Assembly (NCBI GenBank): GCA_964016885.1
Contig: OZ024740.1
Span: forward strand, 336,350,001-336,414,000
From: Eledone cirrhosa
Taxonomy: Eukaryota
DNA length: 64,000 bases
Direction: 5' to 3'
Shown: one piece after another, positions 12,586-61,862 of the stretch
Layout: the number at the start of each line of letters is the position of its first letter
Position numbering within the stretch: the first letter of the stretch is position 1
The notes under the pieces: model-generated
What the model was told of the DNA's origin: nothing
The model's input: the letters and a program-made list of their open reading frames with translations, nothing else
Database searches by the model: none
Translations under genes and position numbers: made by a program

Positions 12586-14415
12586 TGGACGATAACAAGA
12601 GGGACACATTAGACAATTTCAGGCCCATAACTCTGCTCAACACAGAGTTTAAGATTTGGGCCAGGGTGTTAGCGAAGAGGTTGGCGCTTGTCGTCGGGGA
12701 TTTGGTTGGGGAGGCGCAAACTTGCGCAATCCCAACCAGGTCCATACACGACAACCTCCACCTGATGCGATACATCATAGAGAGAGTAAGGTGTAAACCT
12801 GGCTTCGGTGGGGCTCTGATCAATTTAGATCAATCGAAAGCATTCGATAGGGTCGACCATCGGTACCTGGAGGCTGTCCTCAAGGCGGCTGGCTTCGGCC
12901 CCGTCTTCAGAAGCTAGATCGTTGCAATGCATAGCGGCACCTGCTCGGTGGTCAAAATTAATGGCCATCTCTCAGAACCGTTTCAGGTCTCTCGATCGGT
13001 CCGTCAAGGGTGCCCTCTCTCCTCCCTTCTGTACGTGTTGACCCTCGAGTCTTTACTGCGGAAGCTGGAGCTGTTGCAGAGCATCCCGCTCGAACCGGGA
13101 CGCGGAAAGGCTGTGTCGGCTTATGCGGACGACATCACCGTGATGGTGTCGGACACCTCAGAAATTGAGGCGGTCGGCAACTTATTGGAGGAATATGAAA
13201 GGTTGACGGGAGCAAAACTTAACCCGGAAAAGTCGGTGGGCTTGCAACTCGGCACCTGGAGAGGCAAGTCCATGCCGTCCAACAGCGTCGTTAGGCGCCG
13301 GACGGACGGACCGGTAAAGTTGCTCGGGGTTTGGTTCGGGCCAGACCTCCAGGTGGATAAAAATTGGGACGAGGTGACGGGCAGGGTAGCCAGTCTCACC
13401 CAGAAATGGGCTGCGAGAAAGCTATCACTCAAAGGTCGGGCGGAGGTGGCGAACGCGTACATCGCGTCCGTCATCTACTACCGTCTGACCGTCATCCCTT
13501 GCCCCCGTTCGCGCCTCGCCATCTTAGAGCGGCTCCTCTCCAAATTCTTGTGGAGGGGTCAGGTTTCGTTGGTGAGGCGGTCCATCTGCTGCCAGCACCC
13601 TATACGTGGAGGGCTGGGCATGTCGTGGCTAATGATGCGCAGACACGCGCTGAGGCTGCGGAATCTCCAGATATTCTGCCTAAACGGTGAACAGGTATGG
13701 TCACCGTTTGTCAGACGGGCCTTTCCGCAGCTCGTCTCTTCGACTGAGCTGCAGTCCTGGGTCAAGAAGAGATCGAGACTAGGTGACTGGCATCTGGAAT
13801 GTTGCCAGGCACTCACTGCCCTCTACTAGGCGGGCAATGCGGTCAGTGGAACTTCCACTCTCGAGTTCTATAGAGGATTAGTGGTGGGCAGGTGCGATAA
13901 CGCACTCGGAGAGGCTCTGGCAGTCGACGAAGTCGAACTAACCAGTTTGTTCAGGAGAACTTTCGAGCCAAGGACGATGGATAATTTCCAAAAATCCCTC
14001 GCTTGGCAGTGCTGCCGGGGGGGGGGGAGGCACTGCCGGTTCGAGATAAACTCTACAGACACGGAAGTGCTGTCAGACGGACCTGTCCGAGATGAGCGCA
14101 GGGCGACGAAACCGTTCTGCACGCACTCATCCAGTGTCCGTGCATTACAGACTTGTGGAGTTATGTCGAACAGTTGTTGTCGCGTGTAGAACCGATCCGG
14201 CTATCAGCCGAGTCCATAGTGAAGATCGACCCGCCGCCTTCTTTTGGCCAGGAAGGGCAGGCAATTTTCCTCTGTCTGGTGGCAGTAGCGAAAGAGGTTG
14301 TATGGTGGACGAGGTTGAAAGGACTGAAGACAGACACTTTTCTCTTCGGCCAATCCCTTATCAACTTTTTCAAGTTTCACTTGGAAATGAAGGTGAGGGT
14401 GGAGAGAGAAGTGCT
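12586..14415 (+). pseudogene. 5'- and 3'-truncated Tx1-like ORF2 copy (RT to zf-RVT)
   Basis: Collinear with 1-3283. In-frame stops at 12915 and 13827; frameshift in the G-run near 14020. Confidence 0.93.
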
Positions 14416-22737: not shown

Positions 22738-23278
22738 CGGAAAAAAATGAAACGAAATTTCATTTCCCACTCTTAGTACGGCTGTTACTTAAATATAAGT
22801 ATGTACACGTACATACATATATGTATACAGACGTACAGTAGTATGTATATATATATACATACATGCACACATATATATATGTACGTATGGAAATTTCGTT
22901 TCATTTTTTTCCGTTTATCGTTTTCGGTGCGCCCGGCCGATTAACCCACTCGATATGCAAATTGGGCTACTCAGCCGTTAATATGCATTAGGTAAGTATA
23001 TACGTTCAACAATCTGGCAGGAAGGTATACGTTGCTGACGATAGCTAATAAGCTTGAAACTAGTACAGCGTTCCTTTGTCAGTGTTGAACAAACGAGCAA
23101 CGATGGTTGCTGGACACTACGGCTTAATACGGGATGTTTGTTTACAAACACACCGAGCATTATAATAAATGTTCGGTGAATCCATACGTACATATATATA
23201 TGTGTGCATGTATGTATATATATATACATACTACTGTACGTCTGTATACATATATGTATGTACGTGTACATACTTATA
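22738..23278 (+). mobile_element. HHR-bearing non-coding element with an inverted partial copy (retrozyme/Penelope-like)
   Basis: 22738-22761 inverts 22890-22913, and 22795-22890 inverts 23181-23278. A second partial copy lies at 27048-27243. Confidence 0.75.
23029..23071 (+). ncRNA. Type I minimal hammerhead ribozyme
   Basis: acgttg-CTGACGA-tagctaataagctt-GAAA-ctag-TA-cagcgt. Stem I can extend through gttcaaca/tgttgaac. Predicted cleavage after A23065. Confidence 0.82.
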
Positions 23279-23300
23279 TATATATATATATATATATATA

Positions 23301-27047: not shown

Positions 27048-27258
27048 GAACAAATGAGCAACGATGGTTGCTAGACACTGTACGGCTTAATTCGGGATGT
27101 TTGTTTACAAACATACCGAGCATTATAATAAATGCTCGGTGAATCCATACGTACATATATATATATGTGTGCATGTATGTATATATATATACATACTACT
27201 GTACGTCTGTATACATATATGTATGTACGTATACATACTTATATATATATATATATAT

Positions 27259-28034
27259 AAGCCAGTCAGAGTATAGCTTAAAGCTTTCTCTGTTAATGTA
27301 TTAAATATTATACTCTTGATTTGGCCTGAGATGAATATTTCCAGATACCTTTTAAGCGTAACTTTCCGTATTTATTATTACTATGAAATATTGATTGTTA
27401 TTCTGGTATCATATCTCTGTTTTTAGCCTAAGAAAATACCTATATGCGTGTATAAATAATACATTCATATATTTATTTTTTTTTAAATCTAATTGAGTTC
27501 TTCACACGCAGGGTTAAAATTGTTGAAAGAATTAATTGACCCGCGTGTATATTATTTTACTTTCTTATGTTTCGCGATGACCTCCCCTTTCCGCTTGATG
27601 ACAGTGTGAGATTTCTCATTCTGAGACTGCTGGAATTTCAAATTTGGCGGTCATTCTGATACGGAGAGAGACCATCGCTAACATTGGATTGGACATCGGT
27701 AAGAGAGGTTTTTTTTATATCGATGTTTGACGGGCATCCACTGATGATTTATAAGTGCCCACCTGCGTATATTCCTACGGAATATGTGCAGGCTTCTACA
27801 TAACCTGGACACATTTTCCCAATTTGTAGAAAACTTATAATGAAACAATTGTTTGGAAAGGGAGATATATTTTAATTATGTCTCATATAAAATAATACAA
27901 CTGGCTTTCCGCAAAATACATATAGTTAGCACCCCAAACGTAAAATTGGGATTATACTAAGGTATATCCTAATGTTTGTTGAGTGAGATGGAAGCCAGTC
28001 AGAGTATAGCTTAAAGCTTTCTCTGTTAATGTAT

Positions 28035-43545: not shown

Positions 43546-44464
43546 TGTATGCATGTACATATATGCATATGTGTGTGTATTTGTGTGCATATCTGTTTGT
43601 ATACGTGTATGCATGTGTGTGTGTGTACATGTGTGCCCGCTCGTATATGGACATACATTAACATGCTTACATATACATGTGTGTGTGTGTGTATTTTCAA
43701 ATATCTTGGATCATTAATAAAATGATATATCTGTATTTATATATAAACAGAAATTATAGCAACGAACCACTATTATAAATCAAACAAAGTAAAACGAAAC
43801 CACATTCATACATCTCCAAACCCCGACCAATTCCAACAGTACCATGTTCCAGTCCTAGCTCCGTCTATAAATTTATTGGCAATAAATTCAGACATTGCCT
43901 TCCTATGCATTGCGTCACTGCTTTCAATCAACTGCCGTTGCTATCGGAGACCATTCTTTTAAGCGAACCATTAATACTATTGAAGTCAGTCACAAAACAA
44001 TGTAGAGATATCTATATTGCTTTCCTTCGAAAAACTGCGCTCCTAATTCTTCGCCAATTCAAACAATTGGTGTTCATGGGATACTGCTAAAGAATACTAG
44101 TCCTCTGACTCTAGACTTCTGCTGGTCAATAACTAGAAATACATAGACATTTTATAACTAGAATAAAGACGAAGAATTAATGAGTGGACACGTGATATTG
44201 AAATTGGAAGCCTTTGATTGGTTTGTACTTTTTTTTATTGCAGCTGGACATTCTTAAAGTTAGTTATACATACATACATGCATACATACACTCATACATG
44301 CATACATACATACACACATACACACACATACATACACACATACACACATACATACATACATACATACACACATACAAGCACACATACATACATACATACA
44401 TACATACATACATACATACATACATACATACATACATACATACATACATACATACATACATACA

Positions 44465-45855
44465 TCCGAGCAGTTGATGTTGGAACTCGAAAAATACTAG
44501 ACAACACCGGAAACTTCCACATCAACAGTGACATAGACCGCCTTTACTTGAAACGTAAGCAGAGAGGCAGAGGCCTAACATCAGTCCAGACAGCATTTGA
44601 ATGTCGCATCATATCTCTCCGACAACATCTACGAACCTCGAAGTGTAGGAGCCCGTTTCTCGAGCAAGTCTATCTGCATGAAACAGATAAGATCAAGAGA
44701 GTTGGCAAGGAACTCCTCGAGAGATATTCCCTGTGTGATAATCAAAAACTCACACCCAGGGATGTCGCTCAGCAGTATTGCAGAGAATCCATGGATGAAA
44801 AACTGCATACTTATCAGCAAAAAATCATGCATAGATATGATGCCAGGAAGCTCCAGAGTGAGAGTAATATAGATAAGGAAAGTAGTCTATCTTGGACCAA
44901 CAACCGCTATATTGGCTCCCACTTTGAAGGATACGCTTTTGCAATCCAGGAACAGGAGATTAGCACGAAATACCTGATTCACAAACGAGATAGGGATGCA
45001 GGCAAAACACCTAGATGTGATAACAAGTGCAGACTCTGCAGAATTAACATCGAGGATATCGCCCATGTCATCAGCAGCTGTCCAAAGATGTCATCACGGT
45101 ACTATCTACCTATGAGGCATGATGTAGTGGCCAAAACACTGTACAATGCAGTTCGTAAAAAAGATAGCTCCGATAATAAACACATTAAAAGCTACAGCAA
45201 TGTGGAAGACATCCATGTACATAATATGAAAGAGTACTGGTGGAATGTTCCAGTAAAAACCCCAATAAAATGCAGGCATAACAGACCAGATATTATGATA
45301 TGGGACAGGGAGAAGAAAGCATGCACAGTAGTGGAAATTAGCTGTCCAGCAGATGCCAATATAATATCAAAGATTAGTGAAAAGGAGAATATTTATGCAA
45401 AACTGATGAGAAATCTGCAGATACTCGACCCTGATTACACCTTCAGATTTATGCCTGTGATTATTGGGGCACTGGGGTATGTTAGTAACTGCCTCAATAC
45501 AAATCTTGAGAAGCTGGGCTTCACAGGAACAGAAAGAACACAACTAGTTGGGAAATTACAAGTACAATCCATTAATGGAACAGTAAAAATATGTAAAACA
45601 TTCCAAAAATTTTGCATCTAATAACTGCATATACACATGTACAGATACAAAGCATATACACATGCACACATACAACTCAAAATATACACATCCACACATA
45701 CAATAACATCCATATCTACACATGCATACATACATACATATCTACCTAGTTGATGTTGTGTAAATTCCAATGAGAGAGTCTTGTGTCTATGTTAGAAACC
45801 GACTCTCTCTCTATTGGTAAAATTTTGTGAAATTATAAAACCAGAAGAACATACA
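44465..45855 (+). mobile_element. 5'-truncated R4/Dong-clade LINE (RT thumb, CCHC, restriction-like endonuclease) in (TACA)n
   Basis: Open frame to the stop at 45621: DRLYLKRKQRGRGL, CRLC...HVISSC, RHD, RPDIMIWD...VVEISCP. (TACA)n on both sides. Confidence 0.92.
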
Positions 45856-46699: not shown

Positions 46700-47066
46700 A
46701 TGGTGGCTGCCAACTCCTTTTCGAGTACGGCCACTACTTTACATCCATGTAGGAGAAACCCTACCGATGCGCTGAACGAGTGTGACTTTTTAATCCAGCC
46801 AGCGACTTGAAAACTCTGGTACAAACACTACACTTGTGACAATTATTGACACATAGTGCTGGGCCCATGGTACCATGTGACGATAAGTGCAGAGAGATCT
46901 CCAGATACAAAGCAATGCCTGTGCCGTGAAGCTTTTATAGTGAGCAAAGGCACTGCACAGAGCCAGTCCCACTCTCTTAACCAAGATGATATTTACCAAA
47001 AAGAAGAAGTCAACATCATTGGATACCATCAGGGTTGCAGGTGTTATATCAGAGTTTTCCTTTTCC
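46700..47066 (-). mobile_element. Second bipartite RTE derivative retaining a terminal C2H2 finger
   Basis: RTE 5'-UTR motif taggaaaaggaaaactctgatataacacc joined to HKCSVCTRVFKSLAGLKSHTRSAHR*, a 3' UTR and an (ATGT)n tail. Confidence 0.75.
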
Positions 47067-47569
47067 TACATACATACATACACACATACATACATACATA
47101 CATACATACATACATACATACATACGCACATACACACATACGCACACACATATATACATACATTCATACATACACACATACATGCATGCATACACACATA
47201 CACACATACATACACACATACATACATGCATGCATACAGACACGCATACACACACACATTCATACATACATATACACATACATATATACATACATACATA
47301 CGCACATACATATATACATACATTTATACATACATATATACATACATACACATACACACACAGACACAAACACACACACACGCACATACATACATACATA
47401 CATACATACATACATACATACATACATACATACATACATACATACATACATACATACATACATACATGATGGCTGCCCCCTCGTTATCGAGTATGGCCAT
47501 TGCACGAGGAGAAAGAAAAAAATAATAATAATAATAAATAAATTTAAAAAAAAGAAAAAAGAAATATAT

Positions 47570-48272
47570 ATGAGAGACGTAAAGTAAAAAAATTATAAAA
47601 TTGACTTACTTACTAAAATTTCACTCCCAACTAATTAGTTTCTGAAATGGAATAAATATACTTTCCGAAGAAAATATAGAGAATCATTTCGTCGTCAGGG
47701 AAGTCTATTCTCAGCTAAGTATCCAGGCAAAGCGTGGACTCTGGAAACTTATACAAAAATAATTCAGTGGATAGAAAATAGCAAAGCGTGGACTGAATTC
47801 CTAGCCATTGAAAAAATCACTGCCTACTGCGTCGGTGGCAAATTCAAAAAGAATCAATCACGTGACATCGAGGTCAATCAGTGGAAAGTGGTTTGTTAAG
47901 AAGACAGCGGCCTGCCTGCTACCATAGCAGCAGTCTTGGTCAATATTGCTCGACAAATAATTTGGAGATAATTATAAAGAATTAATATATCTAGTAACAT
48001 ATATATACATACAGATGCATATCAATGCTAGCAAATATATAGGTTTTGTCTTAGTAACTTTGTGGTTCATTTCATTCCATTTCAGAAACTAATTAGTTGG
48101 GAGTGAAATTTTAGTAAGTAAGTTAATTTTATAATTTTCTTATTTTACGTCTCTCATATTATTGTTCTGCAACCCCATGCATTGAACCACAAAGTTATTA
48201 AGACAAAACCTATATATTTGCTAGCATTGATATGCATCTGTATGTATATATATGTTACTAGATATATTAATT

Positions 48273-48275
<3 letters not shown>
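47570..48275 (-). mobile_element. HHR-bearing non-coding element with an inverted partial copy
   Basis: 47572-47655 inverts 48070-48155, and 47985-48068 inverts 48183-48272. Confidence 0.78.
47623..47704 (-). ncRNA. Type I hammerhead ribozyme
   Basis: acttcc-CTGACGA-c gaaatg...catttc a-GAAA-ctaattag-TT-gggagt. 6-bp stem I; UUCG-capped hairpin inside stem II. Confidence 0.75.
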
Positions 48276-48360
<85 letters not shown>

Positions 48361-48479
48361 TAATAACAATAATAATAATAATAATAACAACAACAATAAT
48401 GATATACATATACATATATATATACACACACACGCACACACATAAGCATATCTACACACACACAGACACACGATAGCAA

Positions 48480-51400
48480 CTAACAGCGCTGCGATCGAAT
48501 GTGGCTTTTTAGCCCAGCCAATGATCTAAAATGTCTTGCACAGAGTCGGCAACCAAAAAATTTACTGGGAATAGTCGACTGTGGTTGGAGTTCGTGTACT
48601 TTTGCATGTGGCTTGAGCCCTCCTGCCGATTTACATTCTCTACCACATGTTTGGCAAGCATGATGAGTAGCATCTCCAACAGCAGCCTAGTAGTCAACCA
48701 CTGGTCTTACTTTATGACTGCGAAGATGACTTTCGAGTCCAGCTTTGCTTAGGAAGAGTCTCGCACATACGCTGCATGTCAGCACCATAGGAGGACCCTC
48801 GCCGTCTGGAAGTGCAACAGCAATGCCCTTCCTCACATCCCGCTTTACTTTCTCGTATGCGATTCGAGATGCCTCAAAGGCAACTTTTCCCTCATATACA
48901 GTCTTTCTCCATTTATTACGATCAGCAGCAATATTCTCCCATGTATCAGCAGAGATGTTAGCGTCTTTCAGAGAGGCTTTCAAGGAATCCTTATACCTCT
49001 TTTTTGGTTTATGTGGCGGTCGCTTTCCTTTAACCAACTCTCCATAAAAGAGTTGTTTTGGTATTCTAGAATCCTTCATCCTGGCAACGGAGTCGTTGCT
49101 TAAGCACAAGAGCTTCTATACTGTCACACATAGAGCTTTCCAAAATCTCGACATCACTGATGTGGTCCCTCCAGTGAACGCCATGGATCCGTCTGAGACT
49201 CATCTGATGGAAACGCTCCAATTGCTTAAGGTGGTGTCGATATGTGACCCAGGTCTCGCAGGCATAAAGAAGACAAGAGAGCACATGTGCCCTGTACACC
49301 TTTACCTTTGTCCTCCTGCATATGTCTCGCCGACCCCAGAGTCGCCTTTCTAGCTTACCGAAAGCATCACTTGCTTTCCTAATCCTAAGTGAGATTTCAC
49401 TGTCAAGGTTGCTGTATCGATTGACAGTGCTTCCCAGGTAGACAAACTGATCAACCACTCCAAGTCGTTTGCCATACACATAGATGTTTGGTTCAGTGTA
49501 CTGCTTACCAGGGGCAGGTTGGTACATGACGACGGTTTTCTTGAGACTGACAGTCAGACCTAGGGCAGTGCAAGCGTCAGAAAATGCACTCAAAATGTGC
49601 TGCATATCACTCTCTGTGTGCGCTACAAGATCGCAATCATCTGCATACAAGAGGTCTCTTATGATTGATGTAAATACTTTTGTCTTCGCAGCAAAGCGCC
49701 TGATGTTAAATATGCTGCCTGAGGTTCGATATCGGATGTAAACACCATGCTCGCAATTCCTGAATGCAATACAGAAAACCATTGCAAAGTATATGGCAAA
49801 CAGGGTCGGTGCTGGAATATCCCCCTGTTTCACTCCATTTTTTACTGAGATAGGCTCCGACATGTTACCCCCGACATTAACCCAAGCCTTCATGTCGTCA
49901 TGGAAAGACCTAACTAAATCAAGGAGCTTATCAGGGCAACCAAGTTTCTGGAGAACCTTCCATAATGCATATCTGTTAAGAGTATCGAAAGCTTTTGTCA
50001 GATCGACAAAAACCTGATACAGATCCAAGCCTTGTTCCATGCACTTCTCCTGGAGCTGTCTAGCTGAGAAGATCATATCAGTAGTGCCGCGTCCAGCACG
50101 AAAACCAGATTGACTTTCAGGAAGAACACAATCTGCAATGTGTGTCAGCAGACGGTCCAGAAGCACCCTACATAAAACTTTCCCTACGACAGAAAGCAAT
50201 GATATACCTCTGTAGTTCCCACAATCGTTCCTGTTACCCTTTCCCTTGTACAAGACCACCATTACTGCATCTTTCCAGTCCTCAGGTACGGATTCATTAG
50301 CCCATATCCTGCCAAACAAAGAGTGAAGATGTTGCAGGAGTCTCTCACCACCATAATGTAGGAGCTCAGCATGTATGCCATCCATACCTGGAGATCTTCC
50401 ACTGTTCAGCTTCGAAATAGCCACTGCAACCTCCACAAGCGTCGGAGGTTCTGCGAGAGCTACTTTCACAGGACTTTCTGGAATGAGATTGAGGAAATCT
50501 TCACTGACGACAGACGGCTGATTCAAAAGATCATCAAAGTGTTCTCGCCACCTTCGTAGAATTCCTTGTGAGTCACGAAGAAGTTCTTTGCCATCCTTGC
50601 TGCGAAGCGGTGTCACCAGAGAAGAAGACGGTCCATAAACCTCACGCAAGAGACTGTACAACAGCTTTGTGTTATTGTAATCAGACGCAGTTTGTATCTC
50701 ACCAGCCTTCTCACTCCACCACTGATCCTTCATCTGAGAAAGACTCCGCCTAACACGTGATTTTACATCCCTGAGTTCCTCATGCAACGTATTCCTCTCC
50801 TGTGGTTTTGCCGTCAAGTAACGTGACAGAGCACGCCTCTTATCAGCCAACAAGTCTTCTATATGTACATCATTCTCATTCAACCAGTCTTGATGTTTCC
50901 TCTGCGCCAATCCCAGAACACGCCTGCCTACATCATAAACCGACTTTTTAAGGGTCGGTCAATCCTCACCAAGATCTGCAGCCTGCATCTCTTCTTCCAA
51001 TGTCCTCTTCACATGTTTATCCTTAAGACGAGCAGCATTCAATCTTTTGGGCAGGGCAACACCAGGAGCCCGGATTTTACGTTTAGTGATTAGTTTCACT
51101 TTTGCGCGTACCAGGCGGTGGTCCGTCCAGCACTCAGCTCCACGAAGAACACGAACACACTGCACATCCTGTCTGTCACGCATCCTGACTAGGACGTAGT
51201 CCAAAAGATGTCATTCCTTAGATGCAGGATGCATCCATGTGGTCTTGAATTTGTTCTTTTGTTGGAACATGGTGTTGGTAACACACAGATCCAGATCCTC
51301 ACACATCTGCAGCAGGAGCATACCATTGCTGTTACACTTTCCCACCCCATGCCTTCCGATTACATTCCATGTGTTAAAATCCCTACCCACTCTAGCATTA

Positions 51401-52015
51401 AAGTCACCAAGCACGATGACTTTGTCTGCCTGAGGGATATTTCTTAAAACACCTTTCAAGGCATGGTAAAAGGACACCTTTTCCTCATCGACAGAACTCA
51501 TAGTTGGAGCATACACACTCACCAGGCTAGCATATCTTCCCTTGTCCAGCGGAACTCTCATGGACATAAGACGCTCACTAATCCCTACTGGGAATTCTTC
51601 TAATTTGTTCACAAGTACAGTCTTAACAGCAAATCCTACCCCAGCCTCTCTTCTGGTTCCTTCATCTCTTCCTTTCCAGAAGAATGTATATTCTCCACAA
51701 AATTCCGTAAGATGACCATCTCCAGCTAACCTCGTCTCAGATAAAGCCACGATGTCAAGATCGTAACGCCAAAGCTCCTTTGCAACAAGAGCGGTCCTTC
51801 GTTCAGGACGCTCCAAGGAATCCCTGTCAAGCAGCGTCCGTACGTTCCAGCAGCCAAGACTAAATGCCTTGTTTGGCTCTATTACAATGGCACGATGACG
51901 AGCGGGCCCAGGCTGTGATAACCTGGGGCCCCTGCCCTTATTGCCAATGATCTTTTTTGTTCCAGAACCTAAATTGCCAATTATCTCTTTTATATTGTTC
52001 TGGAACATCATTGAA
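48480..52015 (-). pseudogene. Near full-length RTE-clade LINE ORF (APE, RT, three C2H2 fingers), inactivated
   Basis: WNVRTL, SETR, YAPT, GDFNARVG, TDH; NYRGISLLS, DLTKAFD, GVKQGD, YADD. Stops at 51211 and 48687; deletions near 50950 and 49080. Confidence 0.95.
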
Positions 52016-52044
52016 TTGGAAAAAAAAAAAAAAAAGTAATAATA

Positions 52045-52101
<57 letters not shown>

Positions 52102-52127
52102 GTACACTATTAATAATTATTAATGCA

Positions 52128-59534: not shown

Positions 59535-60722
<1,188 letters not shown>

Positions 60723-61862
60723 GGGAGAGAGAGAGATGGATGGATAGATTAAAGTTTAAGAATCGCTGCTTTCACACTTAAAGTGATCTTCTGAAACTAA
60801 AAAAAAAACAATCCGTGAACGCAGAAGTAAATATTTCGAAAACCGTTGCAAACGAAGGAAAACATGAAGACGATACTATGGTTCGTGAAGATGTTCCCTG
60901 GCAATGAACGGAAAAAAGCGAAGATAATACGTCGTTATGTGGATCGATGAGAACAATTAGACAAAACCACGTTTATGGTATAAATGGAGTCATTAGACTA
61001 ATATTCTATTTAGGAAACCGAATGATTCTCGGCTTCGGACTTAAGAATAATGTAAATAAATTAGTTTATTTACTTTATTCGGTGCAATGCACTTTATTCG
61101 GTGCACTAACAATTCAGGTAGTCTAGTCATGCTCTGTTACTACATTTCTTCGACACCGAAAGAACGTGAGACAAAGCTGACTTCGGTAGGATTTGAATCC
61201 AGAACGTGAAGAGCCGGAACGAATTCAATTATTCCGATACTCTAATCATGCTGCCTATCCATAGAATGACGTAAAATTATCTTTGCAAGACATAGTTTTT
61301 TGAAGAGGTCAAATAAGTTAAAGTAATTATATAATAATGTTCGTAAAATGGAAAATATTAAAATGCATCCTAAGTAAAATGAAAAATTTAAAGTGATGTG
61401 TTAATTGCACGAAATGGAAAAATTCGTACACCAGTATATGTTTGTAGTATGGGAATTGGTAAAGATTAGAATAATCTATTGAAAAGCTAATATAAAGAGA
61501 CATGAGTAATATGGTGTTATTGTATAAGAGGAAAAATTAATGTGTAAAAAGAATAAAGAAATATGAAAATATAGAAATGATACTGGCGAAAAATGCAATT
61601 GTGAGATAGTATGTGTGAAGGTATATAGTGCATAAGTGCAAATATAGTAACACAGGTAAATACAAATGTGTTAAAAGATAACTATATTTCGTAACATAAA
61701 GAACTGTAATTATAGGTAAATGCATTAAGCCGTTAGAAATATATCTCAAACCATAGAGATAATTCATCATACAACAAAAAGGTTAACGTTTACATAAATG
61801 CACACATCCAACGAAATAACATTAACCACACACCAAAATATACATTTATATAAGTGTATGTA

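What the first reader, a model, noticed from the sequence alone, without database searches (positions are those of the whole stretch)
47570..48275. Second permuted, inverted HHR element (~525-nt monomer) with the same architecture as 22.7 kb
The sequence is unrelated to the 22.7-kb element but the geometry is the same: a near-complete monomer on the minus strand (HHR 47623-47704) abuts an inverted fragment that spans the monomer's end-to-start junction through a ~27-nt spacer (48156-48182). Recurrence of the geometry in two families points to a shared integration mechanism, such as two-strand priming on a circular or tandem RNA (inference).
Basis: partly seen in the sequence, partly recalled or inferred. 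Interest (0 to 1): 0.72.

Follow-up and report, generated by a model that had tools for sequence, protein, structure and literature searches.

The report
Hammerhead repeat with Penelope twin-arm footprint
This is one of thousands of copies of a 523-base, protein-free repeat with a conserved hammerhead-ribozyme fold, inserted as two back-to-back arms that end at two fixed, paired positions, likely because a Penelope-type jumping-gene enzyme copies one RNA from both ends of a DNA cut; it is a new member of a known kind.

Summary
The element is real. It is a 523-525-nt type I hammerhead repeat with thousands of copies, inserted in (TA)n tracts; here it sits in a LINE 3' UTR. The 'spacer' is 23 nt of ordinary monomer, not a linker. 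It begins a ~118-nt tail between two fixed 3' ends, S (position 61) and L (position 179). In inverted copies S pairs with L: 55 S-L and 0 S-S among 100 S-anchored copies. The 22.7-kb family, a third repeat and a coding Neptune-like Penelope element show the same footprint. Both arms and all tandem units of an insertion share one haplotype, and most arms read through the ribozyme cut site. Best reading: a non-autonomous Penelope-like retrozyme, primed from both target strands at two internal RNA sites, probably on a circle. The inverted copy, the one-sided tail and the retrozyme-Penelope link are already in print. No RNA data were available and no partner element was identified. The scan reported this footprint before for other families in this genome, not for this sequence.

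The parts
47568..48069 (-). Long arm: monomer positions 85 to 523 then 1 to 61; 3' end at the short (S) site
   Evidence: 98% to the L007 monomer
47624..47703 (-). Type I hammerhead: stem I, CUGACGA core, C.A mismatch, 6-bp covarying stem II with long extension, GAAAC, palindromic stem III, predicted cut after GUU (47629/47628)
   Evidence: no Rfam hit; activity untested
48069..48074 (.). Head-to-head junction of the two 5'-truncated arms (about 1 nt overlap or insertion)
   Evidence: alignment
48070..48279 (+). Short arm: about position 496 to 523 then 1 to 179; holds only the 3' half of the hammerhead (predicted cut 48098/48099); 3' end at the long (L) site
48160..48279 (+).
   Evidence: sequence
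48164..48187 (+). Predicted small hairpin just 3' of the S site; a similar one follows the S site of a third family; candidate RT-binding signal (inferred)
   Evidence: whole-monomer similarity to that family not significant
47560..47567 (.). Left remnant of the (TA)n target
   Evidence: empty sites in other LINE copies
48280..48310 (.). Right part of the (TA)n target
47467..52116 (-). Host LINE (AP endonuclease and RT frames at 51214-52116 and 49069-50958) whose 3' UTR (TA)n tract received the insertion; not part of the element

Best explanation
This is a 523-nt non-coding repeat with a conserved hammerhead fold, inserted into (TA)n as two head-to-head arms with paired fixed ends, and it is likely a non-autonomous retrozyme copied in trans by a Penelope-like (probably Neptune-type) RT-endonuclease. 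Shown: copy number, (TA)n target, two fixed 3' ends, S-L pairing, one haplotype per insertion, read-through of the cut site. Inferred steps: (1) copies with two ribozymes are transcribed and cut to unit RNA, most of which is religated to a circle; (2) the Penelope protein, probably as a dimer, cuts both strands of (TA)n; (3) one DNA end primes at site S and the other at site L of the same RNA species, each site ending in 4 nt that match TA repeats; (4) both cDNAs run 5'-ward, through the ligated cut site and sometimes around again; (5) the two truncated cDNA ends are joined, often by microhomology. This leaves an inverted pair with a tail on one side.
For: End pairing: of 100 S-anchored copies, 55 have an L partner, 0 an S partner, 5 other, 1 runs off the locus and 39 have no partner; of 33 L-anchored copies, 21 have an S partner, 0 an L partner, 3 other and 9 none. 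All 21 mixed-strand clusters among the first 100 listed cut-site matches are head to head (counted by eye). Same footprint in family A (ends 218/277; 9 clear S-L, no clear S-S or L-L, about 6 ambiguous among 30 loci), family C (ends 82/191; 6 S-L and 1 other among 25 loci) and a coding RT+GIY-YIG element with the CxxC linker (3 loci with an S arm opposite an L arm among 40 loci screened). In 30 of 76 inverted copies each arm has sequence the other lacks. Arms share a haplotype: 24 common-allele differences in 9088 shared positions against about 631 expected, 46 insertions; 7 alleles private to one insertion are in both arms and 6 in both tandem units. 164 of 209 arms cross the cut site and 64 exceed one unit. 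Units differ no more than same-position arm copies (2.6% vs 3.1%, 22 insertions). Junctions: 42 of 76 overlap by 1-8 nt. Stem II covaries in 63 monomers. Literature: both strands are cleaved and extended, and the tail equals the sequence between two RT start sites (PMC11167929).
Against: No autonomous element with sequence similarity to this repeat was found in 40 GIY-YIG loci; the matches examined were separate insertions in (TA)n. Rfam finds no hammerhead, the motif folds no better than shuffles (z -0.22), and it has a C.A mismatch at the base of stem II and a GUU cut site, so activity is unproven. Only 5 of 209 arms exceed two units where a constant drop-off would give about 20 (two long arms ran off their loci), which fits finite linear templates as well as harder second-round displacement. 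L-L pairs exist: one clear and one complex among 100 listed L ends. PMC11167929 found no template-target homology at initiation and no need for ribozyme cleavage in vitro. Haplotype sharing could come from two RNAs of one source locus or from later conversion.
Confidence: 0.78

Rival explanations
1. Same Penelope-type two-ended priming, but the template is a linear, mostly uncleaved read-through transcript of a tandem copy; no circle is involved.
For: Deficit of arms over two units. Weak excess of 5' ends just 3' of the cut site (24 vs 16.7 expected), and both arms end there in 5 of 76 insertions (p=0.006, window chosen after looking), which points to some linear cut RNA. Uncleaved RNA is the main substrate in vitro for an anole element (PMC11167929).
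Against: Truncation at about 0.003 per nt would shorten copies each generation, and arrays reach only 4 units among 100 listed sites, yet over-unit copies are common. Units within an insertion are of one haplotype while the family spans 74-99% identity, which needs a single-unit bottleneck (inference).
Confidence: 0.3
2. The inverted arm arises by fold-back self-priming of one cDNA or by a later DNA rearrangement, as proposed for rotifer Penelope copies.
For: Near-palindromic junctions are somewhat enriched (9 of 76 within 10 nt vs 3.7 expected, p=0.011; within 5 nt p=0.13). PMC3846280 argues for self-priming from junction palindromes.
Against: In 30 of 76 insertions each arm holds sequence absent from the other, as in the window copy; arm lengths are uncorrelated (rho 0.11); the partner's outer end is a second fixed site followed by (TA)n in 73 of 76 (the end pattern itself includes some TA).
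Confidence: 0.06
3. A LINE-dependent SINE-like element with L1-style twin priming.
For: APE-RT LINEs are present in the window; twin priming gives 5' inversions with microhomology junctions (recalled).
Against: No poly(A) or 3' repeat tail belongs to the monomer; both ends are internal fixed sites; the arms overlap on the template; coding Penelope-like elements in the same genome show the same S-L footprint.
Confidence: 0.05
4. Two independent insertions landing next to each other in (TA)n, or an assembly artefact.
For: (TA)n tracts collect several insertions.
Against: No (TA)n between the arms, constant head-to-head polarity, S-L pairing and shared haplotypes; an intact empty site is seen in other LINE copies.
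Confidence: 0.02

Closest known systems
Metazoan non-LTR retrozymes (PMC7229834: passages and Discussion read; bioRxiv 10.64898/2026.07.22.740005: parts 1-3 of 5 read)
   Same: Protein-free unit with a type I hammerhead, tandem and dispersed copies, no LTR, PBS or PPT; Penelope elements proposed as mobilisers.
   Different: 523 nt is above the 170-400 nt RNAs of the 2020 paper but inside the 51-972 bp range of the preprint. Those texts do not describe inverted arms, fixed paired ends or (TA)n targeting ('inverted' and 'microsatellite' occur 0 times in PMC7229834). Circular RNA was shown there and not here. No pLTR homologue was found here.
EN+ Penelope-like elements, Neptune type (PMC8557442 and PMC3846280: passages read)
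   Same: Partial tandems, an inverted 5'-truncated copy, a tail on one end only, microsatellite bias, hammerhead near the ends.
   Different: No ORF; the tail is about 118 nt (59, 109 and about 68 nt in the other families seen) against 30-40 bp reported.
Poseidon element of Anolis in vitro (PMC11167929: parts 1-2 of 4 read)
   Same: Two internal RT start sites delimit the tail; both target strands are cut and extended; AT-rich target; predicted dimer.
   Different: There initiation is in an AC-rich loop without target homology, and the two sites are not assigned to opposite strands. Here both ends finish in AUAU or UAUA and are found at opposite ends of one insertion.
Minimal Penelope hammerheads (PMC4209133: passages read)
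   Same: Extra nucleotide after CUGANGA, palindromic helix III suited to dimeric cleavage, circular template proposed for over-unit copies.
   Different: An extra nucleotide also precedes GAAA (C.A mismatch in 62 of 63 monomers), and stem II is long.

Membership tests
Metazoan non-LTR retrozyme | Type I hammerhead motif in the unit | tested here: met
   Core at least 98% conserved apart from N7, stem II covaries in 63 monomers; no Rfam hit
Metazoan non-LTR retrozyme | Tandem copies with two or more consecutive hammerheads | tested here: met
   Up to 4 in a row among 100 listed sites; 63 distinct cut-to-cut monomers. The window copy itself has one and a half
Metazoan non-LTR retrozyme | No protein, LTR, PBS or PPT | tested here: met
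   No stop-free frame of 120 aa within the unit apart from a microsatellite frame at its edge; no terminal direct repeats; PBS and PPT not searched separately
Metazoan non-LTR retrozyme | Self-cleavage and linear plus circular monomer RNA in vivo | not testable with these tools
   Only contigs of runs not on record as RNA were listed
Penelope-like insertion (works like) | Inverted 5'-truncated copy and tail on one end only | tested here: met
   76 S-L inverted insertions among 133
Penelope-like insertion (works like) | Microsatellite or AT-rich target | tested here: met
   Empty (TA)n site; 29 top copies chosen without regard to flanks end mostly in (TA)n
Autonomous Penelope-like element | ORF with RT and GIY-YIG endonuclease | tested here: not met
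   None in the unit; such ORFs exist elsewhere in the genome
Derivative of a specific Penelope pLTR | Sequence homology to the terminal repeat of a coding element | tested here: inconclusive
   None in 40 of 10596 GIY-YIG candidates

The most novel reading that the evidence does not exclude
The genomic copies record the Penelope integration complex: a dimeric RT-endonuclease holds one circular ribozyme RNA and assigns its two start sites to opposite ends of a double-strand cut in (TA)n, then copies the circle by strand displacement from both. The one-sided tail would be an obligate asymmetry set by an RNA signal next to the short site, and this family a ready substrate for testing it.
Probability: 0.4. 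Interest if true: 0.62.

Novelty: new member of a known kind. Interest (0 to 1): 0.38.

Why it matters
How Penelope-like elements make tandem and inverted insertions with a one-sided tail is described as unresolved (PMC8557442), and retrozyme mobilisation by them has been proposed from co-occurrence and sequence relationship. This family adds footprint evidence: near-strict pairing of two start sites and one template haplotype per insertion. It gives exact predictions for an in vitro assay. The element class and the geometry are known, and the scan has seen the footprint in several other families of this genome, so the gain is incremental.

Tried and rejected
RNA evidence: no RNA holder listed. 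Two unlabelled contig sets were laid: one covers the unit deeply, the other shows sparse relatives under a second organism label, and a 'goes back 523' joint there fits tandem DNA as well as a circle. Uninformative on expression. Intron idea: a GTAAGT after the cut site has no conserved 3' AG (1 of 63 monomers); dropped. Partner search: blastn and hairpin-motif scans of 40 GIY-YIG loci found only separate insertions. A sharp pile-up of 5' ends at the cut site was expected for linear cut RNA; only a 1.4-2.5-fold excess was found, with a similar excess inside stem II (windows chosen after looking). Folding energy of the ribozyme region is unremarkable. Literature searches returned no paper describing paired ends or arm haplotypes in retrozymes; subscription journals and preprint supplements were not covered, so absence from print is not established. 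Rows dropped before counts: L082 and L086 (same insertions as L041 and L043) and L063 (same arm and flank as L062); monomer positions 110-185 and 464-499 were masked in haplotype tests.

Full report
Observation. The window holds two head-to-head arms: 47568-48069 on the minus strand and about 48070-48279 on the plus strand. A tandem copy elsewhere (L007) gives a 523-nt unit, which I number from the predicted ribozyme cut. The long arm runs from position 85 round to 61, the short arm from about 496 round to 179. The stretch missing from the long arm is 23 nt (48160-48182), ordinary monomer sequence. The family is abundant: 2912 candidates, 40 scored at 96-98%; 1194 exact matches for the end at 61 followed by TA; 1528 for the end at 179, which include a sister subfamily about 82-85% alike; 3097 for a cut-site pattern. 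Reversed-pattern controls gave 0.

Ribozyme. Rfam reports nothing at gathering score and the region folds no better than shuffles. The motif is nonetheless a type I hammerhead by sequence. In 63 monomers the CUGANGA core is at least 98% conserved apart from N, and two stem II pairs change on both sides: A-U 42, G-C 15, U-A 6; and U-A 35, G-C 26, A-C 2. The GAAAC-to-GUU part was used to pick monomers, so its conservation is not independent. Stem III is palindromic, the type said to work as a dimer (PMC4209133, passages). A C.A mismatch closes stem II in 62 of 63. Cleavage is untested.

Target. Other copies of the neighbouring LINE carry an unbroken (TA)n tract in their 3' UTR, and the element sits inside that tract with both flanks intact. 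A target duplication cannot be read in (TA)n.

Two fixed, paired ends. In 30 top-scoring loci (29 distinct insertions) the 3' ends fall at position 61 (S; one at 58) or 179 (L). I then took all of the first 100 listed S-end matches and 36 of the first 100 listed L-end matches, all on contig C1. After dropping three duplicates: S-anchored copies have an inverted partner ending at L in 55, at S in 0, elsewhere in 5, off the edge in 1, and no partner in 39. L-anchored copies have S in 21 (one loose call), L in 0, elsewhere in 3, none in 9. Independent choice would give roughly half S-S. Pairing is not absolute: two L-L candidates picked from the listing gave one clear and one complex case.

Shared footprint. 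The 22.7-kb family has a 420-424-nt unit and ends at 218 and 277. A third repeat has a 459-nt unit and ends at 82 and 191. A coding element with RT, a CxxC linker and C-terminal GIY-YIG has two ends about 68 nt apart, with S opposite L in three loci. The linker marks the Neptune and Nematis clades (PMC8557442); no tree was built. The ends seen are mostly pyrimidine-rich and finish in a few bases that match TA repeats. No coding element similar in sequence to this family was found in 40 loci.

Template. In 30 of 76 inverted insertions each arm has sequence the other lacks, so one arm is not a DNA copy of the other. The arms share a haplotype: 24 common-allele differences in 9088 positions against about 631 expected, and the partner is within the closest tenth of all arms in 39 of 46. 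Seven alleles private to one insertion occur in both arms, against 114 in one arm only. 164 of 209 arms cross the cut site, 64 exceed one unit and 5 exceed two. Units within an insertion differ no more than same-position copies (2.6% vs 3.1%). A circular monomer explains this most simply, and it explains how over-unit copies are regenerated despite truncation (inference). Against it, long arms are fewer than a constant drop-off predicts, and in 5 of 76 insertions both arms stop just 3' of the cut site (p=0.006, post hoc), so some templates were probably cut linear RNA. I put the circle as main template at about 55-60%.

Comparison with what is known. The inverted 5'-truncated copy and the 30-40-bp tail on one end are described for Penelope-like elements (PMC8557442, PMC3846280). 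A purified Poseidon protein cuts and extends both strands and starts at two internal sites that delimit the tail (PMC11167929). Retrozymes make circular RNA and were proposed to use Penelope enzymes (PMC7229834), and a 2026 preprint relates them to pLTRs (supplements not seen). My four searches found no description of S-L pairing or arm haplotypes. Earlier AI notes of this scan reached the same reading for other families in this genome, after I had stated mine; none matched this sequence. They are not independent support.

Verdict. A real, abundant retrozyme-type repeat with a Penelope insertion footprint: a new member of a known kind. Interest 0.38.

Noticed in passing
window 22743-23282: Family A insertion (420-424-nt hammerhead unit, GUA cut site, ends at 218 and 277, tail 59 nt); unlike family B it also forms arrays of 7 or more units elsewhere.
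   Followed up: yes
window 27048-27259: 5'-truncated solo copy of family A ending at its short site in (TA)n.
   Followed up: partly
L223:6700-7420: Third hammerhead repeat (459 nt, 2418 candidates, ends 82 and 191) with a hairpin just 3' of its short end resembling that of family B.
   Followed up: partly
L222, L226, L228, L230, L232 terminal repeats: Coding Neptune-like family whose hammerhead-like motif has UUGAAAA in place of CUGANGA, with stems I and II, GAAAC and GUA intact.
   Followed up: no
families A, B, C and L238:1042: All four hammerheads have a one-by-one mismatch (U.U or C.A) between the core and stem II.
   Followed up: no
L227:403 and L229:8386; L211:25 and L233:3058: Further hammerhead-bearing repeats ending in (TA)n 140-200 nt after the cut site.
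   Followed up: no
G000:C1:36633150-36634801: Subfamily with a 542-544-nt period, four units in a row.
   Followed up: no
window 12918-13826, 49069-52116, 59825-60778: RT-bearing frames; the one at 49-52 kb is a young APE-RT LINE with 98%-identical copies and a (TGTA)n tail. A 467-aa frame at 44218-45621 has no Pfam hit.
   Followed up: partly
window 46700-47070: 370-nt repeat bounded by (TACA)n with many copies about 95% alike in fetched loci; SINE-like, not identified.
   Followed up: no
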